Positions 5,779 through 32,000 are shown, counted from the stretch's first letter. The stretch is DNA of 32,000 nucleotides from Halorhodospira halophila SL1 (GCF_000015585.1 NC_008789.1:2610001-2642000), one strand, 5' to 3'. The notes: generated by a model from the letters alone, not told the origin. Made by a program: numbers and translations.

Positions 5779-5820
5779 CGTTCCCCCTCCTGGCGGAGTC
5801 GTTCTTATCCGGTCCAACAC

Positions 5821-7866
5821 TCAGAACTTGAAGCCCACCGATCCGACGACCAGGTGAGCGGTGTAGTCGTAGGCCTCCCGCCCCATGAGCACGAATTCGC
5901 CGTCGTCGTCGGGGTCGGGGTCGGGGCCAAAGCCTTTCATCCAGTCCTGCTCTTCAAAGCGCTGACCGACGTAGGCGAGGCGCACCCATCCGGAGTCGGT
6001 GATCTGGTGCTCGCCGTAGAGCTGGAGCTGGGTGAGACGGGTCTCGAGGGTCGGGTAGCGCTGGTCGCCGTCGGGGTCGGCGACGAGGATGTCGCTGTCC
6101 GAGGTGGCGTAGAGCAGCTCGGTACCGAGCGTCCAGCGCTGATCGTTGTCGAGGCTCGTCTCGCCGCCGACCCCGAGGGTGAGGATCTCCTCCTCCTGGG
6201 TCAGGCTGCGGTCGTCACCGCCCTGGGCGCGATCCCGCTCCTCGTAGGTGAGGAAGGCGTAACCGCTGGTGGTCTCTACCGGGAAGTAGTCGGCGGAGAG
6301 GGTGACGGCGCTGCGGTCATCGCCCTCAAGGCCGGCATCCGAGTGCACATAGTCATCCTCGAGGTAAGTGAACTCGGCACCTAGAGCAAGCTCGGGGATA
6401 AGGTGGTAGGTAGCGCTCGCACCGATATCCAGCCGCGTCAAATCGGCCATGTGGTAAAGATCGAGCTCCGGAATATTATCGGCCAGAGCCGAGCCACCCC
6501 CGGCATAGCTCGCCCCCCACCGGTCCATATACGCACCGCGCACGGTTATGCTCAGATTGTCGGTGGGCTGACTGCGCAGACGGCCGCGGTAGGTGTCTTC
6601 GATGGTTTCGTCGTCGGCGTAGGTACGATCTTTCTCCTCGTACTGGTAACCGACCATCAGATTACTGCGCATCGGCAGCCGGAAGTCCGCATCGAACCCC
6701 GCCCTGTGGCGGGTCCAGTCGTGAACGCGCGTGGAGCGGTTCATGGTCGGCAGGTCGTCCCACTGAGCCGACTGGTTGTCCCGGTCCTCGTACTCGTACT
6801 CCGCCTTCACCCGTACGCGGGGGTGGAAGCGATGTGTACCCTGGAGACCTAGACGGGTCGTATCGATCCGGCCATCGAGGTTGTTGCCGAGGACATCCAG
6901 GACGTCCTCGTAGGCCGAATCGTCGATGAAGGACTCATCCTGCTCCGCGCGCCCGTAGACCAGGCTGCCGCTGACCGACGTGCCCGGTTGCAGGGCGTAC
7001 GCCATGGAGCCACTGAACTGATGGTAGCGGTTCTCCGGGGGCCGGGACAGGCGGTGCCGATCACCCTCCTCTAGATTGGTCCAGTCATCCGCTCGGGGGT
7101 CGTCGACGTCGAAAGAGTCTCCGCTGAGCTGCGTGAACTCGGAGAGGTGATAGCCAACCCGCGCCTGGAGGGCATCACCGGCGTACTCCGCACCGAGGTC
7201 GAGCTGGTCGGTGCGCTGATCCACCGGGGCGGGCATCTGGAACCCCCGCGGCGCCGCATCGCTCCATATGCCATAGCCGCGGTACTGGTGCCCCTCCTTC
7301 TCCTCGCGGCTGAAACCAACATCGAGTTTCCAGTTGTCGCCGAGGACGCGATGGGCCCCCACCGCTGTGCGTTCACGCTGGGTGCCCACTTCCCAGTCAC
7401 GGCTGTCGGTCTCGACGTCGCCGGTCACTTGAGGCAACCGCAGATCACCCCCCTCATCCCGCAACGGGCTGACCACATCGTGATCGTAAGATCGCGGCAG
7501 CTCGTCGTACTGCAGATGCAGCCCGTAGGACCCCTGTACCCCGTAGCGGCCACGCAGGCGCCGCGAATCCAGCCCCAGATCGCGCCCCTCAAGGCGGCCA
7601 TACCGTCCTTCCTGTTCGTCCTCGCCGCGATAGCGCAGATCAAGCTCCAGGGCCGGGTAGAGCCCGTCCTCGACGGGCCCCGTGTAGCGGCGGAAGTGGC
7701 TGTTGTCCTGATCTAGATAGCCGAAGCCGAGCCAGATCTCCGACTCCGTCGGACCCACAAAGGTCGCGGAGGACTCGGGCGTGCCGGCATCGGCGCCGGC
7801 CACGATGAATAATGCCGTCGCCGATAGCGCCAGTGAGCTTCCCAATTTGGTGGTGGTTCGAGTCAT
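5821..7866 (-). CDS. Outer-membrane beta-barrel protein, MtrB/PioB family (cytochrome-associated porin)
   Basis: 681 aa. Sec signal peptide (ALFIVAGADA). Alternating Y/G/D-rich beta-strand pattern throughout. C-terminal VGFKF with terminal Phe. Lies between two multihaem cytochrome genes with 31- and 42-nt gaps. Confidence 0.8.
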   Translation of the reverse strand: MTRTTTKLGSSLALSATALFIVAGADAGTPESSATFVGPTESEIWLGFGYLDQDNSHFRRYTGPVEDGLYPALELDLRYRGEDEQEGRYGRLEGRDLGLDSRRLRGRYGVQGSYGLHLQYDELPRSYDHDVVSPLRDEGGDLRLPQVTGDVETDSRDWEVGTQRERTAVGAHRVLGDNWKLDVGFSREEKEGHQYRGYGIWSDAAPRGFQMPAPVDQRTDQLDLGAEYAGDALQARVGYHLSEFTQLSGDSFDVDDPRADDWTNLEEGDRHRLSRPPENRYHQFSGSMAYALQPGTSVSGSLVYGRAEQDESFIDDSAYEDVLDVLGNNLDGRIDTTRLGLQGTHRFHPRVRVKAEYEYEDRDNQSAQWDDLPTMNRSTRVHDWTRHRAGFDADFRLPMRSNLMVGYQYEEKDRTYADDETIEDTYRGRLRSQPTDNLSITVRGAYMDRWGASYAGGGSALADNIPELDLYHMADLTRLDIGASATYHLIPELALGAEFTYLEDDYVHSDAGLEGDDRSAVTLSADYFPVETTSGYAFLTYEERDRAQGGDDRSLTQEEEILTLGVGGETSLDNDQRWTLGTELLYATSDSDILVADPDGDQRYPTLETRLTQLQLYGEHQITDSGWVRLAYVGQRFEEQDWMKGFGPDPDPDDDGEFVLMGREAYDYTAHLVVGSVGFKF

Positions 7867-7897
7867 GGTTCTCGCGCCCTCGCCGTGATTGCAGAGC

Positions 7898-8845
7898 TCA
7901 GCGCTTGAAGAAGGCGCCGCCCGGGTGATTGGAGCCGTGAACCTCGGAGTGGCAGTTGGTACAGCCCTGCCCCCGTGTCATGAACTGCCCCTGCGACAGG
8001 CCTTCGTGATCCGGCCCAAGCAAATCACCGGGATGACCTGTGGTGACGTGACAGGACTGGCAAAGCTGGGCCGTGCGCGCCTCCAGCATGTTCGGGTGGA
8101 TCGAGCCGTGCGGGTTGTGGCAATGGGTGCAGTCTTCGGCCACCGGCTGGTGCTCCCAGAGGAACGGTCCCCGATACTCCGCGTGGCAGTTATGGCAGGT
8201 CTCATTCACCCCCCCGCCGCGGAGCATCGCGTGGCCAGTGGTGCCGTGGGGGTTGTGGCAGTCCGTGCACTCCACCTGGCCTTCCCGGACCGGATGGTGG
8301 TGCGGCCGGTTGAAGTCCACCCGACGCTCCTGGTGGCAACTGCTGCACAGCGTCAGCTGATCCTCCTCGCGGAGCAGGGTGTCGTTGTTGCTGTGCATGT
8401 TGTGGCAGTCGACGCAGGCCATGTCCTGGAACTCGTGAGCGCCACCATCCCAGTGCATGCGGTCCCCGCCGCTGTGGCAGTCCAGGCACGTCTCGTTGGC
8501 CTGGCTGGTGCTCACGTCTTCGCCGATCTCGAAGAAGTGCTCCCAGCCGTCGCCGTGACACTGGTAGCAGTAGTTGCCATCCTCTCGCGTCTGGCCCGCT
8601 GGTGTGCGTGGATCGGACCCCACGGCGTGGGGCGTCTCCTCCATGCGGCCGATGTGGGCGCGCAGATCCTCGGCACGGCGCTCGGCCACAACCGGTGAGA
8701 GACCACGCACCTCCTCGACGAGCTCCTCGAGCTGTTCGGGATCAAGGTCCTCACCCCCAGCCACCGGGGCGATCACCAGCAATGCGAAACAGGCCGCAGC
8801 GCACCCAAACGGCATCAGACGCCGGATCAGTCTTTGCGCGAACAA
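7898..8845 (-). CDS. Periplasmic multihaem c-type cytochrome, MtrA/DmsE/PioA/MtoA family (nine CXXCH motifs)
   Basis: Nine CXXCH motifs. The C-terminus CTNCHSEVHGSNHPGGAFFKR is the family hallmark. Preferred start is TTG 8845, 6 nt after AGGGAGGAG (8852-8860), which gives a normal signal peptide (FAQRLIRRLMPFGCAAACFALLVIAPVAG). An alternative is ATG 8815. The track start at 8911 overlaps the predicted promoter. Confidence 0.85.
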   Translation of the reverse strand: MFAQRLIRRLMPFGCAAACFALLVIAPVAGGEDLDPEQLEELVEEVRGLSPVVAERRAEDLRAHIGRMEETPHAVGSDPRTPAGQTREDGNYCYQCHGDGWEHFFEIGEDVSTSQANETCLDCHSGGDRMHWDGGAHEFQDMACVDCHNMHSNNDTLLREEDQLTLCSSCHQERRVDFNRPHHHPVREGQVECTDCHNPHGTTGHAMLRGGGVNETCHNCHAEYRGPFLWEHQPVAEDCTHCHNPHGSIHPNMLEARTAQLCQSCHVTTGHPGDLLGPDHEGLSQGQFMTRGQGCTNCHSEVHGSNHPGGAFFKR

Positions 8846-8895
8846 GGCGCGCTCCTCCCTATCGATGGAGTTTTGATTGTTATCAACGCCGGGAG

Positions 8896-8910
8896 GCAAA
8901 AGGCGGGCCA
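8896..8910 (-). promoter_or_regulatory. Candidate sigma-54 (-24/-12) promoter of the cytochrome-porin operon
   Basis: The minus strand reads TGGCCC-GCCTT-TTGC, with GG and GC exactly 12 nt apart as in the TGGCAC-N5-TTGC consensus. It lies about 50 nt upstream of the TTG start at 8845. Confidence 0.55.
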
Positions 8911-8989
8911 AAATGGGCCGACCGGCGTAACGGCCCCGTCATACGGGGGTTTCGATACGATTCCCGGGGACAAGACAGAGCCCTGTCGG

Positions 8990-9038
8990 GACCGCCGCGC
9001 GGTCAGGCGCTGCGCAGCGTGGTCTCAGGCTGCGCAGC
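8990..9038. promoter_or_regulatory. Array of palindromes, candidate enhancer (UAS) sites for the adjacent sigma-54 activator
   Basis: The 10-bp perfect palindrome GCTGCGCAGC occurs twice (9009-9018 and 9029-9038), exactly 20 bp apart, inside an imperfect 20-bp tandem repeat (9001-9020 / 9021-9040). It is preceded by GACCGC-CGC-GCGGTC (8990-9004). The array lies 80-130 bp upstream of the -24 element. Confidence 0.45.
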
Positions 9039-9130: not shown

Positions 9131-10495
9131 ATGCGCGGATGCGTCCTGGTCGTGGATGACCATCGCGAGGTGGTCTACGCCGTCCGGCGGCTGCTGCAGA
9201 GCCGCGGGCTGGAGGTGATCAGCGCCCCCTCCGCCGCCGAGGCGGAGCCGCTGGTGCCCCGGGCAGACGCGCTGATCCTGGATATCCAGCTGGAGCAGGA
9301 CAACGGCCTGGCGCTGCTTCAACGCCTGCGCAGCGCCGGGGATGAGACACCGGCGGTGGTCCTGTCGGCGCACACCTTCCCCGACAACGTGGTCGAGGCG
9401 AGCAAGCGCGGCGCGATGCAGATCCTGGCCAAGCCCATCGAGGCCGAGGCCCTGGTCGGGGCCGTGGAAGAGGCGTTGAGCCAGACGCACTCCGACGCCT
9501 CGGCGTCCGCCCTGAGCGCCGAGGCCCACGATGTGCTCGGCACCTCGGCGGCGATGATGGAGGTCTTCAAGGCCCTGGGCGTGGCCGCGGCCAACGACCT
9601 CAACGTCCTACTCACCGGCGAAACCGGGGTCGGCAAAGAGGTTTCGGCGGAGCTCGTCCACCGCCACTCCCACCGGGCCGACGGCCCCTTCGTGGCCATC
9701 AACTGCACCGCCATGCCCGAGAGCCTCCTCGAGGCCGAACTGTTCGGCCACGCCAGCGGCGCCTTCACCGGCGCCAGCCGGGCCGCCGAGGGCAAGGTGG
9801 AGGCCGCCGCCGGCGGCACCCTGTTCCTGGACGAGATCGGCGACATGCCGCTGGCCTTTCAGGCCAAGCTGCTGCGCTTCCTGGAGGACAAGCGCTTCTA
9901 CCGCCTGGGGGAGTCGGCGCCGCGTCACGCCGATGTGCGCGTGATCGCCGCCACCAACCGCCAGCTGCTCGGCGCGGACGCCAGTCAGTTCCGCAGCGAT
10001 CTCTACTACCGCCTGGCGCAGATCCCGGTGCACATCCCGCCGCTGCGCGACCGGTTGGAAGACGTGCCGGCGCTGATCGAGGTCTTCATCCGGGCGGCCA
10101 ACCAGGAGATGGGGCTGGATATCCACGGTATCACCCCCGAGGTCCGCCAACAGGCCCAGGGCCACAGCTGGCCGGGCAACGTCCGCGAGCTCAAGAACGC
10201 CGTCTACCGCGCCGCAGCGAAGCGCCAGCGGGGGCTGATCGATACCCTGGAGCTGGCCGGCGCGGCCGCCGAACCCGCCGGTGACAGCGACTTCGACACC
10301 GCCCTGGACCGCGCTCTGGACCGTGCCCTGGCCCAGGACCGGCTGCCGGAGCTGCTCAACGACCTGGAGCGCCGGGCCGTCCAGCGCGCCCTGACCCACT
10401 ACAACGGCAACAAGAGCCGGGTGGCCGAGGCCTTGAACGTCTCCCGCAACACCCTGCGCGCCCGGCTGCAGGCCATGCAGGAGCCGACGGATTGA
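9131..10495 (+). CDS. Sigma-54-dependent response regulator (NtrC family bacterial enhancer-binding protein)
   Basis: Receiver domain (VVDDH, LILDIQ, AKP). AAA+ domain with Walker A GETGVGKE, the GAFTGA loop and ELFGH. C-terminal Fis-type HTH ([16 protein letters not shown]). SD GGAGGG at 9121-9126. Confidence 0.9.
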
Positions 10496-10515
10496 GGTGC
10501 TGGCTGCCACGCAAC

Positions 10516-11970
10516 ATGGCCGTCCGGCTCGGCGCCACCTTCCTGCTGGTGACCCTGATGGTCGCCCTGCCGCTGACGCTGTGGTTCGACCACTACGCGA
10601 GGGGCATGATCGAGGCCGGCGTCGAGCGCGCCGTCGAGGGGGCCGACGCGCGGGTCATCCTCGACGCCGCGGTGGTCTCGGAGGCTTTCGATCGCGTGCG
10701 CGGCCTGGCGCTGCTGGTGGTGGGGCTCAGCGCCCTGCTGGCCGCCGGCGTCGGGGCGCTGATCGCGGCGCGCTGGCGGACGCGGATGCGCAGTATCGTC
10801 GAGCAGGGCCACCGCCGTGCCCGGCGCGCCCAGGGCGACGGCAAGCAGCCCGCGCGCTGCCCCGGCACACCCCGGCCACGCCCCGGCGAGGACGAACTGG
10901 ACGCCGTCGAGCGGCAACTGCTCAACACCGTCGACCAGCTGGGCCGCTCGCAGTGGCTGCTCGACAGCGTCGAGGACCTGGTGATGCTGGTCGACGCCGA
11001 TGGCACCATCCGCCACGGTAACGCCGCCATCGGCACACACTGCGCGAGTTGTCCGGTTCCCGACTGCATGGGGGCCACGGTGCCGGATCTCCTCGGCGGC
11101 GGACTGTGGCTGCGCATCCGCACCGGGATCGAGCGCGCCGAGACCGGGACCTTCGAGCAGGAGGTGCGGCTGGACGGGCGGTCCTGGCCGGCCCTGGTCT
11201 CCTACCGCCGTCTCGGGGAGCTGACCCTGGTCAAGATCACCGACCTGAGCGAGTACCGCCGGCTGAACGAACATCTGGAGAAGCTCCAGGCCCTCTCCAC
11301 CCTGGGCGAGATGTCCACCGAGCTGGCCCACGACATCAAGAACAGCATCGTGCCGGTGCGCCTGCTCTGCGAGGTGGCCCCGCTGGAGGCCGAAGACCGG
11401 CAGGCGATCTTCCGCTCGCTGGATCACATCCACGAGCTGGTCAATGACTTTATGGCCTTCGGCTGCGGGCGCAGCAGCGAACCGCGCAGCGGCGCTCTCA
11501 CCGAGATCCTGCAGAGCTGGACCACGGTCCTGCGCAACGAGGCCCAGGCCAAGGGCGTCTCCCTGACGGCGGCGTTCGCCGACGCGCGGGTCGAACTGCC
11601 GGGGGGCTTTCGGATCGTCTACGCCAACCTGGTGCGCAACGCGGTCCAGGCCGTACCCGCCGGCGGCCAGGTGTGGGTGGACGCCCGAGTGGATCGCCGC
11701 GACACCCTGGTGCTGCAGGTGGCGGACAACGGCCCGGGCATCCCCGAGGCGCTACGCGAGCGGCTGTTCGAGCCCTTTGCCACCAGTCGCGCCGACGGCA
11801 CTGGGCTGGGACTGCCACTGGTCCAGCGCTATGTGCAGGAGGCCGGCGGTGAGGTGGTCTGCGACTCCACCCCCGGCACCGGGACCAGTTTCACGGTCCA
11901 CTGGCCGGGGGCCGGGGAAACCACAGGCCGTACACTCACCCACCACGCCGGGATCGCCTCTGCGGGCTGA
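10516..11970 (+). CDS. Sensor histidine kinase (two TM segments, PAS-like domain, HisKA, HATPase_c)
   Basis: H-box ELAHDIKNS, N-box NLVRNAVQA, G1 DNGPGIP, F-box FEPFAT, G2 GTGLGL. Start is ATG 10516. An alternative is TTG 10492, overlapping the regulator stop. Confidence 0.85.
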   Translation: MAVRLGATFLLVTLMVALPLTLWFDHYARGMIEAGVERAVEGADARVILDAAVVSEAFDRVRGLALLVVGLSALLAAGVGALIAARWRTRMRSIVEQGHRRARRAQGDGKQPARCPGTPRPRPGEDELDAVERQLLNTVDQLGRSQWLLDSVEDLVMLVDADGTIRHGNAAIGTHCASCPVPDCMGATVPDLLGGGLWLRIRTGIERAETGTFEQEVRLDGRSWPALVSYRRLGELTLVKITDLSEYRRLNEHLEKLQALSTLGEMSTELAHDIKNSIVPVRLLCEVAPLEAEDRQAIFRSLDHIHELVNDFMAFGCGRSSEPRSGALTEILQSWTTVLRNEAQAKGVSLTAAFADARVELPGGFRIVYANLVRNAVQAVPAGGQVWVDARVDRRDTLVLQVADNGPGIPEALRERLFEPFATSRADGTGLGLPLVQRYVQEAGGEVVCDSTPGTGTSFTVHWPGAGETTGRTLTHHAGIASAG

Positions 11971-12040
11971 CGCCTTGGATCCTTCCGTATCAGGCGGCTA
12001 GGCGCTGGATGGGTCCAAACCGCTCGTGACGACACTGCCG

Positions 12041-12070
12041 TTGACACGCCACGCAGGTTTGGAGTATACT
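12041..12070 (+). promoter_or_regulatory. Near-consensus sigma-70 promoter upstream of the NYN gene
   Basis: TTGACA (12041-12046), 18-nt spacer, TATACT (12065-12070). Confidence 0.5.
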
Positions 12071-12125
12071 TTTTCCACGACTCACCCCGTGACCGCTTGG
12101 TTCGACCAAGTGCTCTCGGGGCGAC

Positions 12126-12155
12126 AAGCCGCCTCCGGGCGGCTTTGTCATTTCT
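12126..12155 (+). terminator. Terminator-like hairpin in the leader of the NYN gene (or 3' end of a short RNA, or of the kinase operon)
   Basis: AAGCCGCC (12126-12133), loop TCCG, GGCGGCTT (12138-12145), followed by TGTCATTTCT. A second hairpin CTTGGT-TCG-ACCAAG lies at 12096-12110. Confidence 0.35.
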
Positions 12156-12166
12156 GGAGATGGGTT

Positions 12167-12823
12167 TTGCGAACCGTCGTCTACGTCGATGGGTACAACC
12201 TGTACTACGGACTGCTGAGAAAAACCGCGTTCAAGTGGTTGGATCTCGTCGTTCTGTTCCGCGATCACGCCCTGGATCCGCAAGTCGATCTGGTGGAAGT
12301 CCGATACTACACCGCCCCAGTGCTTGGGCGAATGTGCGACGACCCCAAATCACCCCAGCGCCAACGGCGCTACCTACAGGCGTTGCGCACGATGCACCCC
12401 GAACGACTTTCCATCATCGAGGGCAAAATCATCGCAACGACCCCCTTCAAGCGCCTAGCCCAACCTATCCCAGAGCGTCCGGATCTCGAGCGAGTTCAGG
12501 TCCTTGACTTCCATGAGAAAAAAACCGATGTCAACCTCGCCGCTGACTTAATCGCCGGGTCTTGGGTTGGTTCGTATGAGCAGGCGGTTGTGTGCAGCAA
12601 CGACACAGATCTCGACGCGGCACTTGCGACCGTACGCCGCTATCAGCCCAGTATCCGCCTAGGCCTCGTCGCGCCCATCCCCGGCCATGATCACCGGCGC
12701 ATCCCAGCCGACCTAGCCAAGCACACACATTGGTCCAAAACCCTTAGCCCCGTACACCTGAGCAACGCTCAACTACCTGAACGCATCCCACACTCAACTC
12801 TTCGAAAACCCGATACATGGTAA
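12167..12823 (+). CDS. NYN-domain (PIN-like, LabA/DUF88-type) protein, putative RNase
   Basis: N-terminus RTVVYVDGYNLYY is typical of NYN proteins. Later KKTDVNLAADL and VVCSNDTDL acidic motifs. Start TTG 12167 lies 6 nt after GGAGA (12156-12160). The track start at 12026 would overlap the promoter and hairpins. Confidence 0.7.
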   Translation: MRTVVYVDGYNLYYGLLRKTAFKWLDLVVLFRDHALDPQVDLVEVRYYTAPVLGRMCDDPKSPQRQRRYLQALRTMHPERLSIIEGKIIATTPFKRLAQPIPERPDLERVQVLDFHEKKTDVNLAADLIAGSWVGSYEQAVVCSNDTDLDAALATVRRYQPSIRLGLVAPIPGHDHRRIPADLAKHTHWSKTLSPVHLSNAQLPERIPHSTLRKPDTW

Positions 12824-12981
12824 GTGGTTTGGCCCTGATAGGCTCGGGTCCATCCCGAGCCACCCGCCACTCTGGCACCACCCGATCGCCATGGACACCA
12901 GCCCATGAAGACGCCCGGAACCCGCCCTGCTGACGCCCTGATCCGGAACGCTGGATGGCGCGGTACTGCCGAGGTCCGCCG

Positions 12982-13569
12982 ATGAGGCGCAGGTGGGCGA
13001 CGACGGCCGGCTGTCTGCTGGTGGCCGGGGTGGCCGCGGGCGGCAACGCCGCCGCGGACGAGCGCGCCTACGGCGGGGTCCTCGAAGACGGCTGGCGGGT
13101 AGCCGTGGTCACCGGGACGCTGGCGGTATCCGACGGCACCGATACCGGAACGGCCCGCACCGTGGCCCTGGCCAACGGGGCCCATGTGATCAACGATCGT
13201 GGGCGGTATTGGGACTTCGAGGTCGGCCTGGCCTACACCCAGACCGCCGCCCACCCGAAGGGGGCCGGCGGGGAGACCGTCCGCGTCAACCAGACGGACG
13301 CCTACTACCAGGCGCGGCGGCTATTCGGCGAGTCGCCCTGGTTCCTCGGCTGGCACGTGGCGCTGACGCGCACGAGCATCCAGCCGGCCGACACCGGCTC
13401 CGATCGTGACCTGGGATTCACCGCCGGGGTCATCGCCGGCTACCGCGGGTCCGGCCGTTTCGGCTTCCAGGTCGACGCCCTGGTGACGGACCCCGATCCG
13501 GAGTTTGGCGACCTGACCCTTGGCTACGAGACACGCCAGTACCGCGCCTCGCTGCAGTTTCGCTTCTGA
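12982..13569 (+). CDS. Small outer-membrane beta-barrel protein (OmpW/OMP_b-brl-like), function unknown
   Basis: ATG 12982 lies 7 nt after GAGG. Signal peptide RRRWATTAGCLLVAGVAAGGNAAA. Alternating hydrophobic strands. C-terminal SLQFRF. Confidence 0.55.
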   Translation: MRRRWATTAGCLLVAGVAAGGNAAADERAYGGVLEDGWRVAVVTGTLAVSDGTDTGTARTVALANGAHVINDRGRYWDFEVGLAYTQTAAHPKGAGGETVRVNQTDAYYQARRLFGESPWFLGWHVALTRTSIQPADTGSDRDLGFTAGVIAGYRGSGRFGFQVDALVTDPDPEFGDLTLGYETRQYRASLQFRF

Positions 13570-13578
13570 CCCCCCGGG

Positions 13579-14412
13579 CTAAAGGGTCCCTTCGATACCC
13601 ACGTGCACCCCGTCTTCCCGGCGGGGCCCGGCCATCTCGATGCTGCGGGTCAGGATGTCCGCGGCGCCGTCCCGCGTATCCACGACGGCATCCAGCTCAT
13701 AGGAACCGGCCGGATCCAGCCGCCAGCCCCCGCCCAACTGAAGCGGGCCACCGGTATCGCCGAGCTCACCAACCAGCGCGCCGTCCTCGGCCCGCAGCTG
13801 AGTGGTCAGGCCGCCGAGCTCAACGTATTCGTCAACAGTGACGGCGGCGTCGTGCCAGGCGAGGCGGCCATCGACCTGCTGCAGGCGACCTCCACGGTCG
13901 ACCCGTAAGGTGTCGATGGCAAAGGCGAACGTCCCGGCGAGCAGCACTTCCTCGCCGAACTGGGCGGCCAACCGGCTCCACGGCGCCGCCGGGAAGCGGC
14001 CGTGGACATCGCGCAGGCTCAGCCCGCCGGCGGCGAGGGTCGCCCGCCCCTCGGCGAACCCGTCCCCCATTGAGGCCTCGATCGTTGCCTCCAGCCGACC
14101 GGTGAGCAGCGCCGCCGGACGGACGCGCCAGCGGATCTGCTCCGCCTGCAGGTCTGTCGTCCCGACCTGGATGCCCTGGCCGTCCCAGACGGTACCGTCC
14201 AGAGTGCCCACTTGCACCTCGGGCGGCACGGACAGGTAGCGCTCGGCCAACGACCAGGCGTGGGCCGCCGGCCAGTGCGCCAGGAGGAAGGCGCAGTAGG
14301 CACCGAGGCCCAGCACCGTGAACCCCCAGAATCGTCGCCCCGGCCACCTGAGCCGGGGCGCACCCCGGCTTCGACGTCGCAACAACCGGACCCACGGGCG
14401 GGCGGCGGTCAC
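13579..14412 (-). CDS. gspN: Type II secretion system protein GspN
   Basis: 277 aa with a single N-terminal TM segment. The GTG start overlaps the gspM stop (GTGA). Its position after gspM is as in canonical gsp operons. Confidence 0.65.
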   Translation of the reverse strand: MTAARPWVRLLRRRSRGAPRLRWPGRRFWGFTVLGLGAYCAFLLAHWPAAHAWSLAERYLSVPPEVQVGTLDGTVWDGQGIQVGTTDLQAEQIRWRVRPAALLTGRLEATIEASMGDGFAEGRATLAAGGLSLRDVHGRFPAAPWSRLAAQFGEEVLLAGTFAFAIDTLRVDRGGRLQQVDGRLAWHDAAVTVDEYVELGGLTTQLRAEDGALVGELGDTGGPLQLGGGWRLDPAGSYELDAVVDTRDGAADILTRSIEMAGPRREDGVHVGIEGTL

Positions 14413-14933
14413 GTGCCCACCTCCAGGGTCAGGCGCACGTTGACCAAGCCGTCCTCTTGCGTCCGCTCCACAGTCAAGGCATCTACCTCAACGCCGGCGG
14501 CGCGCTGCAGGCCGTCGAGCCAGTTCATGAGCTCATCGAAGGGGACCCGGTCCATCCACACCCGGAGGGTGCCATCCCCGTCCGGCTGCACCCGGCTGAG
14601 CTGATCATCGATCCCGGCCTCCCGGGCGGCCCGATCCACCAGGCTGAGCAGGGATCGCTCGTCGGTGACCGGCTCTGCCGAACCGTTATCCCCATCATGG
14701 GCGTGGATCTCTTCCGCGGCCGAGCGCATCCAGGCCAGATCCTGGCGCTGCTCGGCGACCTGAGCTTGGAGCTGGTCCCGACGCTCGGTCAACGGCTCCC
14801 AAACCGCCACGTACGGCACCACCACCAGCACCAGCAAGCCGCCGCTACCCAGCAGCCAGCGTTCCCGAGGGTTACGCGCCGACCAGAAGCGTTCAGCCTC
14901 GGCGCGGAGCTGCTGCAGCGCCTCGCGGATCAC
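14409..14933 (-). CDS. gspM: Type II secretion system protein GspM
   Basis: 174 aa. N-terminal FWSARNPRERWLL plus a TM segment, typical of GspM. The GTG start overlaps the gspL stop (GTGA). Confidence 0.8.
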   Translation of the reverse strand: MIREALQQLRAEAERFWSARNPRERWLLGSGGLLVLVVVPYVAVWEPLTERRDQLQAQVAEQRQDLAWMRSAAEEIHAHDGDNGSAEPVTDERSLLSLVDRAAREAGIDDQLSRVQPDGDGTLRVWMDRVPFDELMNWLDGLQRAAGVEVDALTVERTQEDGLVNVRLTLEVGT

Positions 14934-16162
14934 GCCGACTCCTCTTCGCGAATGACCAGGCGACCGTCCACGCGACCCTCCCGCGCCGACGCCGAGCGGA
15001 TCTCGACGGCCAGGCCGGCGTCGCCCTCCAGCGCTCTCCGCAGGCCCTCCAGGGTCTCGATGTCCACGGTATCCAGTTCCACCTCCAGGCTGCCGTCACG
15101 CAGCCGCAGGGTCCGCACCCGGAGTCCGTCGCCGGCCAGGGCGGGTGCCGCCTTGCCCAGCAGGCGGGCGAGGTGCCCGCCCCCCTCACCGCCGCGATCG
15201 CCGCGTATCGTGCGCAGGTGGTGCTCCATCTGCACCCGCGGATTGACCACCCGACCTTCCGGGAAGGTCTCCCGGTAGACCTGCTCGATCTCCGCCGTGA
15301 GCTGTTCAGCCTCGCGTTCCAGCCGCTGGACCTCCAGCCACTGCAGCGCCCCCTGACCGAGCAGCCAGACAGCGAGGAGCGCAGCCGCTGGGCGTAAGGG
15401 CCGCCATAACCAACCCCAGCGCTCGCGGCGGGCGTACGGCCCCTGGCGCAGGTCAACGGCGGTGCGCGGGTGGTACCAGGCGGCCAGACGAGGCAGGAGA
15501 TCGGCATCCACCGCCCGCGACTCCAGCTCCGGCGCCGGCTCCGCCGCTGCCGCCGCCGACTCCAGGCGCGTCTGCAGCGCCGCCGGTGCCTGCAGCGTGA
15601 GGCGCTGCGGCGGTCGCTCGGCAACGGCCAGCGCGGCCTCGAGGGTCACCGGCGCCGAGGCCGGCTCCAGGGCAAAGCCGTCCGCCCCGAGGGCGAGCAC
15701 CACCTGGTTGCGGTCCGCCTCGACGCGCCAGTGCCCGGAGTCGGCCGGGAGCAGCCCGTTTTCCGGGACCAGGGCGTCGACCTCCAGCCCCAGGGATGCG
15801 AACTCATCGAGCCACGCCTGCATGGCAGCGTGCTCGACGACGGCGGCGTGCACGCCGCCGTCCGCATCGATCCGCCGGATGGCGAAGTGCAGCGCCTCCA
15901 GATCGCTGGTCAGCTGCTCCTCCAGCGCGTACGGCAAGGCCTGGAGCACGCGCGGACGGCGCCGAGTGGGCAGCCAGACCCGGGTCACCAGGACCTGCGC
16001 CCCGGGGACGACGCCGACACAGCGCCGGCCAGCGCGGTGGGGTGCGACCACCTCCGGCCGCAGAAGACCTTGATCCAGGATCGCGCCCCCCTCGGCAACG
16101 ACGGCAAAGCGATACCGGCCATCGTCGCACCGCGGGAGCTGGATCAGCAGATACTCGGGCAT
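14930..16162 (-). CDS. gspL: Type II secretion system protein GspL
   Basis: Start MPEYLLIQLP at ATG 16162. Conserved LQALPYALEEQLTSDLEALHFA segment. Single TM segment in the C-terminal third. Confidence 0.85.
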   Translation of the reverse strand: MPEYLLIQLPRCDDGRYRFAVVAEGGAILDQGLLRPEVVAPHRAGRRCVGVVPGAQVLVTRVWLPTRRRPRVLQALPYALEEQLTSDLEALHFAIRRIDADGGVHAAVVEHAAMQAWLDEFASLGLEVDALVPENGLLPADSGHWRVEADRNQVVLALGADGFALEPASAPVTLEAALAVAERPPQRLTLQAPAALQTRLESAAAAAEPAPELESRAVDADLLPRLAAWYHPRTAVDLRQGPYARRERWGWLWRPLRPAAALLAVWLLGQGALQWLEVQRLEREAEQLTAEIEQVYRETFPEGRVVNPRVQMEHHLRTIRGDRGGEGGGHLARLLGKAAPALAGDGLRVRTLRLRDGSLEVELDTVDIETLEGLRRALEGDAGLAVEIRSASAREGRVDGRLVIREEESA

Positions 16163-16193
16163 GGGGTCACCGTACCATCGCCACTCGGCCCCG

Positions 16194-17054
16194 CTAACAG
16201 GGGCGGAGACGGCGCACCACCACTTCGCCGCTCGGGGCGTGCACCACACTGCACTGGTGGTGGAGGCGGCCGTCCACCTCCAGCCTCAGGGCCACCTGGA
16301 CGTAATCGCCCAGGCCCTCATCCCCCGGGTCCATATCCTCGGGATCCGGCAGGTTGTAAGCCTCGCGCAACCGTTCCGGCGCAGCCAGGGCGTTGAACCG
16401 GGTGCCCACCTCCGGTAACGCAGCCACATACGGCTCCAGGATGCGGTATGAGTCGGCATCCACGCCGCGGATCTGCAGCAGTTCACTGGGCACCGCCAAG
16501 GGCCGATTGGAAGGGCGGTAGGGGGGGGCCTGCCGGCTGTACCAGTCGTCTTCCACCTCGGGATCAGCCCAGTCGCGCAGGGCACGGATGACCTCATCCG
16601 GGTCCAGCCGGAAGTCGCCGTGGTCGCGGTTAAGGGCCTCGACCAGTTCGATGAAGCCGACCTCGGTCTCCTCATCCTCCTCGTCGATGAGGTTATTGAG
16701 GTTGATCCGGCAATGGAGATCTTCCAGGCGCACCTCCACGACGGCTCCCCCCACCTCTGTAGTAAAAGGCGGTGTACGACAGTCTTCGTCGAGCATCTGC
16801 GCCGCCTGATCGGTGTCGATCTGCGCCTCCTGGACCGCCTCGGCGGCCAGCGCCTCGACGCTCATGGCGTGGAGCTGCGCCTGGCTGGCCGCGTGGCTGG
16901 TCTGCGCCCGGCGCAGGTCGATCTGGTGACTGGCGGTCAGCGAGACAGCCGCCACCGAGGCCAGTGCCACCACCAGTAGGGCCGTGATCAGCGCAACACC
17001 GCGCTGAGTCCAAGGTGGAGTCTGAGGGCCAGGAATATCGCCATACGCTCTCAT
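16194..17054 (-). CDS. gspK: Type II secretion minor pseudopilin GspK
   Basis: QRGVALITALLVVALASVA prepilin-like N-terminus and GspK-type body. Start is ATG 17054 (GTG 17060 also possible). Confidence 0.8.
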   Translation of the reverse strand: MRAYGDIPGPQTPPWTQRGVALITALLVVALASVAAVSLTASHQIDLRRAQTSHAASQAQLHAMSVEALAAEAVQEAQIDTDQAAQMLDEDCRTPPFTTEVGGAVVEVRLEDLHCRINLNNLIDEEDEETEVGFIELVEALNRDHGDFRLDPDEVIRALRDWADPEVEDDWYSRQAPPYRPSNRPLAVPSELLQIRGVDADSYRILEPYVAALPEVGTRFNALAAPERLREAYNLPDPEDMDPGDEGLGDYVQVALRLEVDGRLHHQCSVVHAPSGEVVVRRLRPC

Positions 17055-17271
17055 GGTCACTCAAGCTTACACCGAGCGTCATGAAGCCGTCTCGATCCGG
17101 TCGCAGGGCGGCGTCGCCGTGCAGCGACAATCTCGAGCACTGCAGATCAGCAACTTAGCGCGCGCTCCCTGCCGTAGTGTTGCCTGACGGCGACAAAACG
17201 GGGCGCCCCGGCCTGCCTCCGCTCCGGGCCGCCGATCCTATCTTCTTGTTTTCCCGGTTTTTTACAGATGT

Positions 17272-17288
17272 TGGCACGCACCCTGCTT
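17272..17288 (+). promoter_or_regulatory. Candidate sigma-54 promoter upstream of the acidic secreted peptide gene
   Basis: TGGCAC-GCACC-CTGC-TT with GG/GC spacing of 12 nt. It starts 99 nt upstream of ATG 17371 and follows a T-rich tract (17241-17263). Confidence 0.5.
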
Positions 17289-17370
17289 AGAGAAGGGCGA
17301 GTGGTCGAAGTCGATCACGGCGACGACGCACACGACAGAGCAACGAAGCAACCGAAAGCGGAGGTAACGT

Positions 17371-17616
17371 ATGCATCACAAGCACTGGATCGCCGGTCTC
17401 CTGGCCCTGATGGTCGGCATGGGCTCCACCGCCGCCATGGCGTTCGACACCGAGGGCGAGGCAGACGACCAGTGGGAAGAGCCGGCTGATGACGGCTTTG
17501 AGGATGACGGCTTCGAAGACGACGGCTTCGAGTTCGAGGAGCAGGACGACGAGATCGACCCCTGGGACGAGGATGCCGACGATACTGATGCCGGCGACGA
17601 GGAGCTGGACTTCTAA
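17371..17616 (+). CDS. Small secreted polyacidic protein (81 aa) with three DDGFE repeats
   Basis: GGAGG lies 6 nt before the ATG. Sec signal peptide ends in AMA. The 57-aa mature part has 32 Asp/Glu and no Lys/Arg/His. A strong terminator follows. Confidence 0.65.
   Translation: MHHKHWIAGLLALMVGMGSTAAMAFDTEGEADDQWEEPADDGFEDDGFEDDGFEFEEQDDEIDPWDEDADDTDAGDEELDF
17488..17532 (+). repeat. 3 x 15-bp tandem repeat encoding DDGFE
   Basis: gatgacggctttgag / gatgacggcttcgaa / gacgacggcttcgag. Confidence 0.9.
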
Positions 17617-17653
17617 TACTGGCTGCTTGTAACCCCTATCGGGCTCTCTATCG

Positions 17654-17691
17654 GGAGGCCCAATCCAGGACGGATTGGGCCTCCTTTTTTT
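17654..17691 (+). terminator. Rho-independent terminator of the acidic peptide gene
   Basis: 13-bp perfect stem GGAGGCCCAATCC / GGATTGGGCCTCC, loop AGGAC, followed by seven T. Confidence 0.8.
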
Positions 17692-17717
17692 GCGCCGCCA
17701 GAACGGTGCCGATACCC

Positions 17718-17755
17718 AAAAAAAGCCCCGGAATCCGGGGGGAGGGATCCGGGGC
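17718..17755 (-). terminator. Rho-independent terminator downstream of engB
   Basis: On the minus strand: GCCCCGGA...TCCGGGGC (or the inner CCCCGG-ATT-CCGGGG hairpin) followed by seven T (A-run 17718-17724 on the plus strand). Confidence 0.65.
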
Positions 17756-17857
17756 CAACAGCCAACCCGACCTTGGGGGGAGCCGGGTTGTGTGCGCCAC
17801 GCTAGAGAGGAGGTTGTGGACCGCACATCAGCGACGCTCACTAGGTGCGACCATCGG

Positions 17858-27698: not shown

Positions 27699-27772
27699 GC
27701 GGGTGTAGCTCAATGGTAGAGCTCCAGCTTCCCACGCTGGCGATGTGGGTTCGATTCCCATCACCCGCTCCA
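27699..27772 (+). tRNA. tRNA-Gly (anticodon CCC)
   Basis: Hand-folded cloverleaf. Acceptor GCGGGTG/CACCCGC, D-arm GCTC-AATGGTA-GAGC, anticodon arm CCAGC-TTCCCAC-GCTGG, T-arm GTGGG-TTCGATT-CCCAT, discriminator T, encoded CCA. Confidence 0.9.
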
Positions 27773-28796: not shown

Positions 28797-28835
28797 CGCA
28801 CCGGGGTGGTGCGGCCACCGTGCCGGACTGGTGCA
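28797..28835. promoter_or_regulatory. NtrC-type palindromic sites (candidate UAS) upstream of the TorF-family porin gene
   Basis: CGCACC-GGGGT-GGTGCG (28797-28813) is a perfect 6-bp inverted repeat matching the TGCACC-N5-GGTGCA core in 5 of 6 positions per half-site. A second weaker site ends in GGTGCA (28819-28835). Confidence 0.45.
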
Positions 28836-28908
28836 GGGCGGCCGCCGAGCATCCCCACAGCGCCTTCGCTACGCCGTAACCCCCTGACTCTTGGGGACCA
28901 CCCCTCGC

Positions 28909-28924
28909 TGGCACGCATCATGCT
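28909..28924 (+). promoter_or_regulatory. Candidate sigma-54 promoter of the TorF-family porin gene
   Basis: TGGCAC-GCATC-ATGC-T with GG/GC spacing of 12 nt. It starts 101 nt upstream of ATG 29010. Confidence 0.55.
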
Positions 28925-29009: not shown

Positions 29010-29672
29010 ATGAAGAAGCCTCTCCCGTTCCTCGCCGCCGCCGGCGGCCTGCTCCTCGGCCTCTCCGCCAACGCCCAGGCCGAAGAGCTCGGCGCCGGGT
29101 GGAGCCTGTCGTCCAACGTGGCGATCACCTCCAACTATCTTCTCCGCGGTGGGTCCGAAAGCGACGAGGATCCCGCCATCCAGGGCGGTTTCGATCTCGA
29201 CCACGCTAGCGGGTTCTACATCGGGACTTGGGGTAGCAGTGTCGTCCTCGGGGAGGACGCAACGGAAATCGACTTTTATGCCGGGTATGCCTTTGAGTTC
29301 GCCCCTGGCCTCAGCCTGGATCTTGGCGCCGTGGCTTATACCTATTACCCAGCGGGGGACTCGGACGACGAGGAACTCTACGCCGGGATCGCTTCGTCAT
29401 TCGGCGAACTAGACTACGATTTCTACCTCTACTCCAATAGCGAGCCCGACATCACCGGCGAGTTAAATCTGGCTCACCCCATCGGGGCCGGTGTATCGGC
29501 TTTGGGTCAGCTGGGCTTCGTGGAGCCCGATGACGACAATGGCGATTACATCTACTACGCCGTGGGGGCCAGCTACACCTATCAGACCCTGGACTTCAGT
29601 GTGATGTGGACAGATACGGATGAATCTGGGAGTGACGACCAGTTCGCAGTAATGGTTTCACGGTCCTTCTAA
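29010..29672 (+). CDS. TorF-family putative outer-membrane porin
   Basis: Signal peptide ends in ANAQA. The N-terminal signature NVAITSNYLLRGGSESDEDPAIQGGFDLDHASGFYIGTWGS matches the proteobacterial TorF-type porin family. C-terminal VSRSF. Confidence 0.7.
   Translation: MKKPLPFLAAAGGLLLGLSANAQAEELGAGWSLSSNVAITSNYLLRGGSESDEDPAIQGGFDLDHASGFYIGTWGSSVVLGEDATEIDFYAGYAFEFAPGLSLDLGAVAYTYYPAGDSDDEELYAGIASSFGELDYDFYLYSNSEPDITGELNLAHPIGAGVSALGQLGFVEPDDDNGDYIYYAVGASYTYQTLDFSVMWTDTDESGSDDQFAVMVSRSF

Positions 29673-31284: not shown

Positions 31285-32000
<716 letters not shown>

What the first reader, a model, noticed from the sequence alone, without database searches (positions are those of the whole stretch)
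17272..17691. Sigma-54-driven gene for an 81-aa secreted peptide that is 56 % Asp/Glu with tandem DDGFE repeats
The ORF has a textbook SD, a Sec signal peptide (cleavage after AMA) and a very strong terminator, so it looks real. The 57-residue mature peptide has 32 acidic residues, no basic residue, seven aromatic residues (five Phe, two Trp) and three DDGFE units encoded by a 3 x 15-bp tandem repeat. General halophilic acidity does not explain a complete absence of basic residues. Its promoter core, TGGCACGCACCCTGCTTA, is nearly identical to that of the TorF-type porin gene (TGGCACGCATCATGCTTA) and lies at the same distance from the ATG (99 vs 101 nt). This hints at co-regulation. The gene sits divergent to gspK. 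Its function is open: a periplasmic or secreted cation (Fe, Ca, Mg) buffer, an anti-encrustation factor for an iron- or mineral-facing envelope, or a T2SS substrate or chaperone.
Basis: partly seen in the sequence, partly recalled or inferred. Interest (0 to 1): 0.55.

Follow-up and report, generated by a model that had tools for sequence, protein, structure and literature searches.

The report
Hyper-acidic exported peptide, GlrR-type sigma-54 control
This is a real, conserved small gene of salt-loving purple bacteria for an exported, almost purely acidic peptide, and its switch matches that of an envelope-sensing regulator (GlrR/QseF) that drives small calcium-binding proteins in related bacteria, so it probably binds metal ions in the cell envelope.

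Summary
ORF 17371..17616 encodes an 81-aa protein with a Sec-type signal peptide. The 57-aa mature part has 32 Asp/Glu and no basic residue. A sigma-54 promoter, an SD, a 3 x 15-bp repeat and a strong terminator are all present.

The gene is real. Relatives occur only in Halorhodospira and soda-lake Ectothiorhodospiraceae. Substitutions between them fall mainly at third codon positions.

The new result is the control region. Every family member, in five different gene neighbourhoods, carries two palindromes (T/C)GTYGCC-N4-GGCGAC(A/G) at about -160 and -94 from the TGGCAC promoter element. This fits TGTC-N10-GACA, the published GlrR/QseF site. The same motif and geometry lie beside glrK-qseG-glrR genes of other Proteobacteria, where they most often drive small secreted EF-hand proteins.

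The TorF-type porin promoter has NtrC-like sites instead. The gspK neighbourhood is not conserved. The DDGFE repeat varies from three copies to none.

Best reading: an envelope-regulon output, a disordered periplasmic polyanion that binds divalent cations. The function is inferred, and no GlrR gene was found for Halorhodospira.

The parts
17112..17129 (+). Distal upstream activator site CGTCGCCGTGCAGCGACA (TGTC-N10-GACA type palindrome). It starts 160 nt before TGGCAC, about -186 to -169 from the inferred start site.
   Evidence: One of only two matches in the window with at most 1 mismatch, against 0.13 expected. Aligned and conserved in all related loci.
17178..17195 (+). Proximal upstream activator site TGTTGCCTGACGGCGACA. 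It starts 94 nt before TGGCAC and lies 66 bp from the distal site.
   Evidence: The distance from this site to the promoter is kept at 75-78 nt in the family. The glrR-adjacent promoter of L138/L141 has its sites at -161 and -94.
17238..17268 (+). T-rich stretch (CTATCTTCTTGTTTTCCCGGTTTTTTACAGA) between the activator sites and the promoter. It may be a bend or IHF site. This is inferred only.
   Evidence: Read. AT-rich DNA sits at the same place in L052. IHF is needed at GlrR-dependent promoters in E. coli (PMC3045617). No match to the IHF consensus was shown.
17272..17287 (+). Sigma-54 promoter TGGCACGCACCCTGCT, with the -24 GG at 17273-17274 and the -12 GC at 17285-17286.
   Evidence: 3 matches against 0.13 expected. 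Invariant TTGGCACG-N4-CTGCT in six aligned loci. Present in L010, L011, L013 and L052.
17295..17370 (+). Inferred transcription start region and 5' leader of about 73 nt. It holds the conserved GGGCGAG (17295-17301) and the SD GGAGG (17360-17364).
   Evidence: Conserved block in alignment A2. GGGCGA recurs in L010, L011 and L052. The start position is inferred from the usual spacing after the -12 element and was not mapped.
17371..17616 (+). Coding sequence, 81 aa. The signal peptide is 17371-17442 (24 aa, cleavage after AMA). The mature 57-aa polyanion is 17443-17613. The stop codon is 17614-17616.
   Evidence: Differences by codon position are 2/1/13 against L005, 6/10/31 against L001, and 6/3/23 for L010 against L052. 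GC3 is 0.83, like the neighbouring genes.
17488..17532 (+). 3 x 15-bp tandem repeat encoding DDGFE x 3. The copy number varies among relatives.
   Evidence: A 15-nt deletion in L001 and the absence of the repeat in the L010 type are seen.
17653..17692 (+). Intrinsic terminator with a 14-bp stem, 5-nt loop and T7 tail.
   Evidence: Conserved, with changes that keep the base pairing (CCCAATCC/GGATTGGG against CCCCATCC/GGATGGGG).

Best explanation
The unit 17112..17692 is a self-contained, sigma-54-dependent gene module.

Shown from sequence and comparison:
- Two TGTC-N10-GACA palindromes lie about 160 and 94 nt before a conserved -24/-12 promoter.
- Downstream follow an inferred ~73-nt leader, an SD and a protein-coding ORF under purifying selection.
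- The product has a Sec-type signal peptide with an A-x-A cleavage site, and the gene ends in a strong terminator.

Inferred regulator: a GlrR/QseF-family enhancer-binding response regulator. In E. coli this three-component system (QseE/QseG/QseF) responds to a signal from the cell envelope. The activator is probably not the NtrC-like regulator encoded at 9131..10495.

Inferred product: after export and cleavage, a 57-residue peptide with a net charge of about -32, no basic residue and no predicted fold.

Inferred function: a high-capacity, low-affinity binder or buffer of divalent cations (Ca2+, Mg2+, possibly Fe) in the periplasm or at the outer membrane. It would be the functional counterpart of the small secreted EF-hand proteins that sit behind the same control region in related Proteobacteria.
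For: The gene is real:
- Relatives of 64-95 % identity exist.
- Substitutions fall mainly at third codon positions, and indels are multiples of 3.
- GC3 matches the neighbouring genes.

The control region travels with the ORF:
- It is conserved in five different neighbourhoods: after EBP-HK-OMP, after gspK, after another OMP, after a GNAT gene, and beside folD.
- The palindromes occur nowhere else in the window with at most 1 mismatch.

The motif is GlrR-type:
- It fits the experimentally defined GlrR site TGTCN10GACA, which lies more than 100 bp upstream of sigma-54 promoters (PMC3045617).
- A metagenome scan for proximal site plus promoter gave at least 120 loci. The spacings peak at 65-66, 75-77 and 86-88 nt, which is helical phasing.
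- Three of the activator genes beside these sites were scanned and score best as GlrR over their full length: 624-641 bits against 409-445 for NtrC. Eleven adjacent activators share the C-terminal helix-turn-helix motif.
- Loci fetched through the GlrR protein alone show the same module after glrR. In L138/L141 the sites lie at -161 and -94, against -160 and -94 here. Alkalilimnicola ehrlichii also has it.

Analogy for function:
- One of the two largest groups of downstream genes is small secreted EF-hand proteins of 80-95 aa (14 loci; bactofilins 15).
- They lie directly after glrR in relatives.

Disorder and composition:
- AlphaFold2 finds no secondary structure in the mature part.
- The repeat number varies.
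- The mature peptide is 56 % Asp+Glu, against about 20 % for H. halophila periplasmic proteins (PMC11724841).
Against: - No GlrR/GlrK gene was found for Halorhodospira. Two protein searches listed GlrR in Alkalilimnicola, Nitrococcus, Arhodomonas, Aquisalimonas and others, but none of the top 120 hits was named Halorhodospira.
- In five Halorhodospira loci the peptide gene lies two genes after a different sigma-54 activator, which could be the true regulator.
- Cation binding is inferred from composition and from the regulatory analogy only. The profile comparison with the EF-hand proteins shows no homology.
- Genes behind GlrR-type promoters are varied: bactofilins, BON proteins, lipoproteins, pilins and probable sRNAs. 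'Same slot' is therefore a weak guide to function.
- The start site, export, cleavage and final location are all unverified.
- The structure model rests on four sequences.
Confidence: 0.4

Rival explanations
1. The neighbouring two-component system (activator 9131..10495, kinase 10492..11970) controls the gene. The peptide would then belong to the MtrCAB/PioAB-like electron-transfer module and handle iron, for example keeping Fe(III) soluble at the envelope.
For: The order EBP-HK-OMP-peptide is kept in L005-L008 and L108. A decahaem/MtrB/MtrC cluster lies beside it in the window and in L005, L006 and L008. Polycarboxylate peptides bind Fe(III) well (general chemistry).
Against: The activator's helix-turn-helix ([21 protein letters not shown]) differs from that of the activators found beside this motif. 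The mtr operon's own sigma-54-like promoter has a different palindrome, GCTGCGCAGC x 2. L007 keeps EBP-HK-OMP-peptide without the mtr genes, and L010, L011 and L052 have the peptide module without any of these genes.
Confidence: 0.12
2. The peptide is a periplasmic accessory or feedback partner of the sensor kinase, following the logic of CpxP with CpxA or ZraP with ZraS. It would not be a bulk cation buffer.
For: In relatives, the gene right after glrK-qseG-glrR is a small periplasmic protein under GlrR-type control. Envelope two-component systems often induce a small periplasmic modulator (own knowledge of Cpx and Zra). The conserved motifs [WF]EEPA, EIDPW and the C-terminal Trp/Phe look like docking motifs.
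Against: There is no direct evidence. The gene is not next to a glrK gene in any locus seen. The variable repeat number fits a bulk physical role better than a specific interface.
Confidence: 0.15
3. The gene is co-regulated with the TorF-type porin gene and is functionally tied to the type II secretion system, as a substrate or chaperone.
For: The promoter cores are nearly identical and lie at similar distances from the ATG. gspK is divergent in the window and in L001.
Against: The upstream activator sites differ. The porin and glnK promoters have NtrC-like sites, and the peptide promoter has none. The gsp neighbourhood is absent in most relatives.
Confidence: 0.05
4. The palindromes are PpsR/CrtJ-type repressor sites (TGT-N12-ACA), so the gene would be controlled by light or oxygen as photosynthesis genes are.
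For: The sites fit TGT-N12-ACA and come as a pair. The host is a purple phototroph. The string TGTCN10GACA also occurs in a paper on the Rhodobacter AppA/PpsR system (PMC5747161, listed, not read); that it is the PpsR site is from my own knowledge.
Against: No sigma-70-type promoter is found for the sites to overlap. They lie at enhancer distance from a sigma-54 promoter. The same motif and geometry occur next to glrR genes in many non-phototrophs.
Confidence: 0.03
5. The transcript acts as a regulatory RNA and the ORF is incidental.
For: GlrR drives the sRNAs GlmY and GlmZ in enterobacteria (PMC3045617). L026 and L143 have non-coding stretches with terminators behind the same module.
Against: The ORF shows third-position substitution bias, in-frame indels, a conserved SD and signal peptide, and gene-like GC3. 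No Rfam family matches convincingly on the + strand.
Confidence: 0.02

Closest known systems
GlrR/QseF-dependent sigma-54 promoters of Enterobacteriaceae (glmY, glmZ, rpoE P2), controlled by QseE(GlrK)/QseG/QseF
   Same: A -24/-12 promoter with several TGTC-N10-GACA activator sites about 100 bp or more upstream. The system is tied to envelope homeostasis (PMC3045617, PMC6075780). The same motif and geometry lie beside glrR genes of other Proteobacteria.
   Different: The output here is an exported peptide, not an sRNA or a sigma factor. There are two sites instead of three. The cognate regulator has not been found in Halorhodospira, and the gene is not next to glrK-qseG-glrR.
Small secreted EF-hand proteins encoded after glrR (ruvB-glrK-qseG-glrR-EF-hand-ybgC-tolQRAB) in Alkalilimnicola ehrlichii and other Gammaproteobacteria
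   Same: Similar size (80-95 aa), a Sec signal peptide, an acidic mature part, and the same upstream sites plus sigma-54 promoter. In L138 the sites lie at -161 and -94, against -160 and -94 here.
   Different: The peptide has no DxDxDG loops and no Pfam EF-hand match. The profile comparison is negative. It is predicted to be unfolded, and it is far more acidic.
ZraP of the ZraSR system (own knowledge)
   Same: A small periplasmic metal-binding protein expressed from a sigma-54 promoter through a two-component enhancer-binding regulator as part of an envelope response.
   Different: There is no sequence similarity. ZraP is a folded oligomeric chaperone and uses a different regulator and site.
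Asp/Glu-rich disordered cation-binding proteins of eukaryotes, such as calsequestrin and the shell proteins Aspein and Asprich (own knowledge)
   Same: Extreme acidity, low complexity, variable repeats, and high-capacity, low-affinity Ca2+ binding or control of carbonate mineral nucleation.
   Different: They are unrelated in origin. No bacterial counterpart is established. Here the resemblance rests on composition only.

Membership tests
Sigma-54-dependent gene | -24 GG and -12 GC elements 10 nt apart within TGGCAC-N5-TTGCW | tested here: met
   TGGCACGCACCCTGCT at 17272-17287. Three such sites in the window against 0.13 expected. One of them drives glnK.
Sigma-54-dependent gene | Promoter conserved in orthologues while the flanking DNA diverges | tested here: met
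   Invariant in six aligned loci. Present in L010, L011, L013 and L052.
Sigma-54-dependent gene | Transcription depends on RpoN and an enhancer-binding ATPase | not testable with these tools
   This needs an rpoN mutant or in vitro transcription.
GlrR/QseF regulon | Several TGTC-N10-GACA sites about 100 bp or more upstream of the promoter | tested here: met
   Sites at 17112-17129 and 17178-17195, 2 matches against 0.13 expected. Consensus from PMC3045617.
GlrR/QseF regulon | The same motif and spacing occur beside glrR genes elsewhere | tested here: met
   Adjacent activators score best as NF011695 GlrR. Spacings show helical phasing. Loci fetched through the GlrR protein have sites at -161 and -94.
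GlrR/QseF regulon | GlrK-QseG-GlrR is encoded in the same genome | tested here: inconclusive
   None lies in the window or in the 10-19 kb related loci. The top 120 hits of two GlrR searches name relatives but not Halorhodospira. No whole genome could be searched.
GlrR/QseF regulon | IHF site between the activator sites and the promoter | tested here: inconclusive
   A T-rich stretch lies at 17238-17268, but no clear match to WATCAANNNNTTR was found.
NtrC regulon (shared with the TorF-type porin gene and glnK) | TGCACC-N5-GGTGCA sites upstream of the promoter | tested here: not met
   Tandem sites lie at 28797/28819 and 31583/31613, and none lies in 17000-17271.
EF-hand calcium-binding proteins | DxDxDG-type 12-residue loop flanked by helices, or a Pfam EF-hand match | tested here: not met
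   No Pfam or NCBIfam hit. hhalign probability is 0.1 against the EF-hand set. No helices are predicted.
Sec-exported protein cleaved by signal peptidase I | Basic n-region, hydrophobic core, A-x-A before the cleavage site, no lipobox Cys | tested here: met
   MHHKHW / IAGLLALMVGMG / STAAMA|FD. The pattern is conserved as A-x-A|F[DE] in all members. A helix at residues 6-18 is predicted. This was read by rule only; no signal-peptide predictor was available.
Type II secretion-linked gene | Conserved linkage to gsp genes | tested here: not met
   The linkage is present in the window and L001/L009 only. It is absent in L005-L008, L108, L010, L011 and L052.
PpsR/CrtJ-repressed genes | Paired TGT-N12-ACA sites overlapping a sigma-70 promoter | tested here: not met
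   The sites fit the form, but no sigma-70-like promoter is present, and they lie about 77 and 143 nt (site end to TGGCAC) before a sigma-54 promoter.

The most novel reading that the evidence does not exclude
Haloalkaliphilic purple bacteria would have replaced the folded EF-hand proteins that normally sit at the output of the GlrK/QseG/GlrR envelope pathway. In their place is a new kind of product: an unfolded peptide of charge about -32, studded with aromatic residues. It would buffer scarce Ca2+ and Mg2+ for the outer membrane, or block carbonate mineral nucleation in the periplasm of cells living in carbonate brine. That would be a bacterial counterpart of the Asp-rich biomineralisation proteins of animals.
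Probability: 0.2. Interest if true: 0.7.

Novelty: new variant of a known kind. Interest (0 to 1): 0.5.

Why it matters
Three reasons.

- It defines a small-protein family with no entry in Pfam, NCBIfam, PHROGs or the PDB. The one named database record (P0001) is called 'hypothetical protein'. The composition is extreme and the regulatory context is clear, so a synthetic 57-mer and one promoter fusion would give direct tests.
- The comparison suggests that the GlrR/QseF pathway has a much wider and different set of targets outside Enterobacteriaceae, the only group in which the papers found in this library describe it. These targets include small periplasmic EF-hand proteins, BON proteins, bactofilins, lipoproteins and probable sRNAs, often next to tol-pal. 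No paper in the library holds both 'GlrR' and 'EF-hand'.
- If the peptide does buffer divalent cations or prevent mineral nucleation, it bears on how Gram-negative envelopes are kept stable in soda brines.

Tried and rejected
- Wider homology. A profile search of 1.84 billion representative proteins found only two true members, P0003 and P0004, plus one spurious hit. The scan of GTDB species genomes found one MAG with two paralogues. Pfam, NCBIfam, PHROGs and PDB sequence searches gave nothing.
- Degenerate EF-hand pair. Some local resemblance (FAEVD against FDDVE, FDEID against EDEID) suggested this, but hhalign gave probability 0.1. Rejected.
- The local activator as cognate regulator. Its DNA-binding helix differs from the GlrR type, and its probable sites (GCTGCGCAGC) differ. 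Kept as a minor rival.
- Finding GlrR in Halorhodospira. Two database searches and four look-ups of candidate hits led to other organisms. Unresolved.
- OMP partnership. A small beta-barrel gene lies next to the peptide gene in three arrangements, but the three OMPs are not homologous, and L052 lacks one (its upstream ORF gave no OMP hit) while L011 shows none upstream before its contig ends. Left as an observation.
- C-terminal Trp/Phe as an OMP-like signal for DegS or BamA. Only the last residue is conserved, and there is no Y-x-F or beta-signal pattern. Not pursued.
- Known RNA family on the + strand. None was found.
- Literature search for the peptide motifs returned nothing.

Full report
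OBSERVATION. ORF 17371..17616 (+) encodes MHHKHWIAGLLALMVGMGSTAAMAFDTEGEADDQWEEPADDGFEDDGFEDDGFEFEEQDDEIDPWDEDADDTDAGDEELDF. GGAGG lies 6 nt before the ATG. The first 24 residues have the n/h/c layout of a Sec signal peptide with A-M-A before the cleavage site. The remaining 57 residues hold 19 Asp and 13 Glu and no Lys, Arg or His. A 15-bp unit is repeated three times at 17488-17532. A hairpin with a 14-bp stem followed by T7 lies at 17653-17692. TGGCACGCACCCTGCT lies at 17272-17287. The pattern TGGCAC-N6-TGCW occurs three times in the window against 0.13 expected. The other likely genes of the window have 5-19 % Asp+Glu. Periplasmic proteins of Halorhodospira halophila are reported at about 20 % (PMC11724841). 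The 56 % seen here is therefore well beyond ordinary halophilic acidity.

IS IT A GENE? Yes.
- The large protein collection holds three related clusters: P0001 (81 aa, 95 % identity, Halorhodospira halophila), P0002 (77 aa) and P0003 (70 aa).
- A profile search that read every one of 1.84 billion representative proteins added only P0004 (80 aa).
- The metagenome scan added L052/L100 (73 aa) and L108.
- The scan of GTDB species genomes found one soda-lake Ectothiorhodospiraceae MAG carrying two paralogues.
- Differences between members fall mainly on third codon positions: 2/1/13 against L005, 6/10/31 against L001, and 6/3/23 for L010 against L052.
- Indels are multiples of three, and GC3 is 0.83, like the neighbouring genes.

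The conserved parts are the signal peptide, A-x-A|F[DE], [WF]EEPA, [DE]E[IV]DPW[DE]x[DE][AG]DD, and a Trp or Phe as the last residue. The DDGFE unit occurs three times, twice or not at all. It is therefore not the core of the family. AlphaFold2 predicts a helix only in the signal peptide and coil elsewhere, from a shallow alignment with pLDDT 58. Pfam, NCBIfam, PHROGs and PDB sequence searches gave no hit.

THE CONTROL REGION. Aligning the upstream DNA of six loci shows three conserved islands in otherwise diverged sequence:
- two palindromes of the form (T/C)GTYGCC-N4-GGCGAC(A/G), at window 17112-17129 and 17178-17195;
- the promoter TTGGCACG-N4-CTGCT;
- GGGCGAG at the inferred transcription start.

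The same three elements precede the more distant members L010/L013, L011/L012 and L052. Their neighbours differ completely:
- EBP-HK-OMP in L005-L008 and L108;
- divergent gspK in the window and L001;
- a different OMP in L010;
- an ilv/leu/UDG/GNAT block in L011;
- ppc and folD in L052.

The unit from palindromes to terminator therefore moves as one module. In the window the palindrome occurs only at these two places with at most one mismatch, against 0.13 expected.

WHICH ACTIVATOR? TGTCGCC-N4-GGCGACA is a case of TGTC-N10-GACA. That is the site defined experimentally for GlrR (QseF) upstream of the sigma-54 promoters of glmY and glmZ (PMC3045617).

I scanned the metagenome collection for the proximal palindrome followed 65-95 nt later by TGGCAYG-N5-TGCT. 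The spacings are far from uniform: 60 hits at 65-66 nt, 18 at 75-77 and 12 at 86-88. These are steps of one helical turn. The peptide family sits in the second phase (75-78 nt).

Where enough DNA was available, an activator gene lies within about 0.1-2.2 kb of the motif. Three of these were scanned against NCBIfam and score best against the GlrR model over their whole length, 624-641 bits against 409-445 for NtrC. [quoted passage not shown]

As an independent check I fetched loci through the GlrR protein alone. Downstream of glrR they show the same module:
- in L138/L141 the sites start 161 and 94 nt before the promoter, against 160 and 94 in the window;
- in Alkalilimnicola ehrlichii (L142) and in L143/L144, one site each lies at -103 and -115.

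The activator encoded in the window (9131..10495) has a different helix-turn-helix, [21 protein letters not shown], and matches the GlrR model only over residues 5-366. Beside it, the MtrA-like operon has its own sigma-54-like promoter (TGGCCCGCCTTTTGCC, minus strand at 8895-8910). About 100-125 bp upstream of that promoter lie two copies of a different palindrome, GCTGCGCAGC.

I conclude that the peptide gene is most likely controlled by a GlrR-family activator encoded elsewhere. I could not show that Halorhodospira has one. Two searches listed GlrR in Alkalilimnicola, Nitrococcus, Arhodomonas, Aquisalimonas, Thiohalorhabdus and Natronocella, but not in Halorhodospira, among the top 120 hits. 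This is the main gap.

- The TorF-type porin gene (Gcw_chp, 29010..29672) does have a near-identical promoter core. However, it and the third sigma-54 promoter of the window, which drives glnK, each have a tandem pair of NtrC-like GCACC-N5-GGTGC sites. There are none before the peptide gene. A shared sigma factor is not shared regulation.
- The gspK neighbourhood is specific to the window and L001. In other Halorhodospira genomes gspKLMN lie elsewhere.

WHAT IT PROBABLY DOES. In E. coli the QseE/QseG/QseF system is thought to sense a signal from the cell envelope, and QseF activity rises when LPS synthesis is defective (PMC6075780). In the environmental loci, small secreted proteins of 80-95 aa with two EF-hand loops are one of the two largest groups of genes behind the GlrR-type module (14 loci, bactofilins 15; Pfam EF-hand_1/5/7). 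In Alkalilimnicola and other Gammaproteobacteria such a gene lies directly after glrK-qseG-glrR and before ybgC-tolQRAB-pal. Other outputs are BON-domain proteins, bactofilins, glycine-zipper lipoproteins, OmpA-like proteins, pilins and, in L026 and L143, non-coding stretches with terminators.

The Halorhodospira peptide has the size, export signal and control region of the EF-hand proteins. It is not homologous to them (hhalign probability 0.1). It is unfolded and much more acidic. The simplest reading is a periplasmic polyanion that binds or buffers divalent cations as part of an envelope response. The variable repeat number fits a bulk physical role. This step is inference. No tool here measures binding, and the variety of GlrR-type outputs weakens the analogy.

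Rival readings are a feedback partner of the sensor kinase, an iron-handling helper of the Mtr-like module under the local activator, a T2SS substrate, PpsR-type control, and a regulatory RNA. Each is listed with its tests.

NOVELTY AND SCORE. The promoter architecture is a known kind. The product is a new, lineage-restricted family with no characterised relative, and its placement behind a GlrR-type enhancer was not found in the searched literature. I rate it a new variant of a known kind, with interest 0.5. A specialist would find the composition and the regulatory link notable, and the hypotheses are cheap to test. However, the function is unproven and the family is narrow.

Noticed in passing
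window 17715-17840, minus strand (between engB and the peptide gene): A candidate small RNA downstream of engB. It has three hairpins, each with a C-rich loop (CCUCCUCUCU, UCCCCCC, CCCUCCCCCC), and ends in a U tail. It gives sub-threshold Rfam matches to ar14 (35.9 bits, E 8e-5) and sX13 (30.9 bits). It is almost invariant in L005, L007, L008 and L108, with a few pair-preserving changes.
   Followed up: partly
window 2443-8911 (minus) and 8895-9038: An MtrC/OmcA-like (1125 aa), MtrB/PioB (681 aa) and DmsE-type decahaem (337 aa) cluster. It has its own sigma-54-like promoter, TGGCCCGCCTTTTGCC, and two GCTGCGCAGC palindromes 20 bp apart (9009-9018 and 9029-9038). These are conserved in L005 and L008, and the promoter also in L006. 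The cluster is divergent from a sigma-54 activator and kinase pair at 9131-11970.
   Followed up: partly
window 12026-12823: An ORF with a weak NYN-domain match and much lower GC3 (0.65 against 0.8-0.93). It lies between the kinase gene and the OMP gene, where L005-L008 have only a 186-nt gap. It is probably an inserted gene.
   Followed up: partly
window 13579-17060 (minus) and 448-1917 (plus): gspN-M-L-K form a block separate from gspE. In the window and L001 the block is inserted between the OMP gene and the peptide gene. It is absent from that position in five other Halorhodospira loci.
   Followed up: partly
window 28797-28924 and 31583-31710: The TorF-type porin gene (Gcw_chp) and glnK each have a sigma-54 promoter preceded by a tandem pair of NtrC-like sites. 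This suggests the porin gene belongs to the nitrogen regulon.
   Followed up: partly
L138-L144 (ruvB-glrK-qseG-glrR-...-ybgC-tolQRAB), L014-L133: Outside Enterobacteriaceae, GlrR-type sites plus sigma-54 promoters precede small secreted EF-hand proteins, BON proteins, bactofilins, glycine-zipper lipoproteins, OmpA-like proteins and pilins. The glrKGR genes often lie next to tol-pal. No paper in the library holds both 'GlrR' and 'EF-hand'.
   Followed up: partly
L026 about 3320-3520 (minus strand) and L143 about 5620-6050: Behind glrR and the same enhancer/promoter module lie about 190 nt and about 430 nt of DNA with no credible ORF, each ending in a terminator. They may be sRNAs analogous to GlmY. 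L026 gave no Rfam match; L143 was not searched.
   Followed up: partly
L005 4176-4748, L010 316-1038, L009 10354-11055, window 12955-13569: A small beta-barrel outer-membrane protein gene lies beside the peptide gene in three different arrangements. The three OMP types are not detectably homologous to each other.
   Followed up: partly
window 27699-27769: A tRNA gene, the only Rfam match above its gathering score in the window.
   Followed up: no
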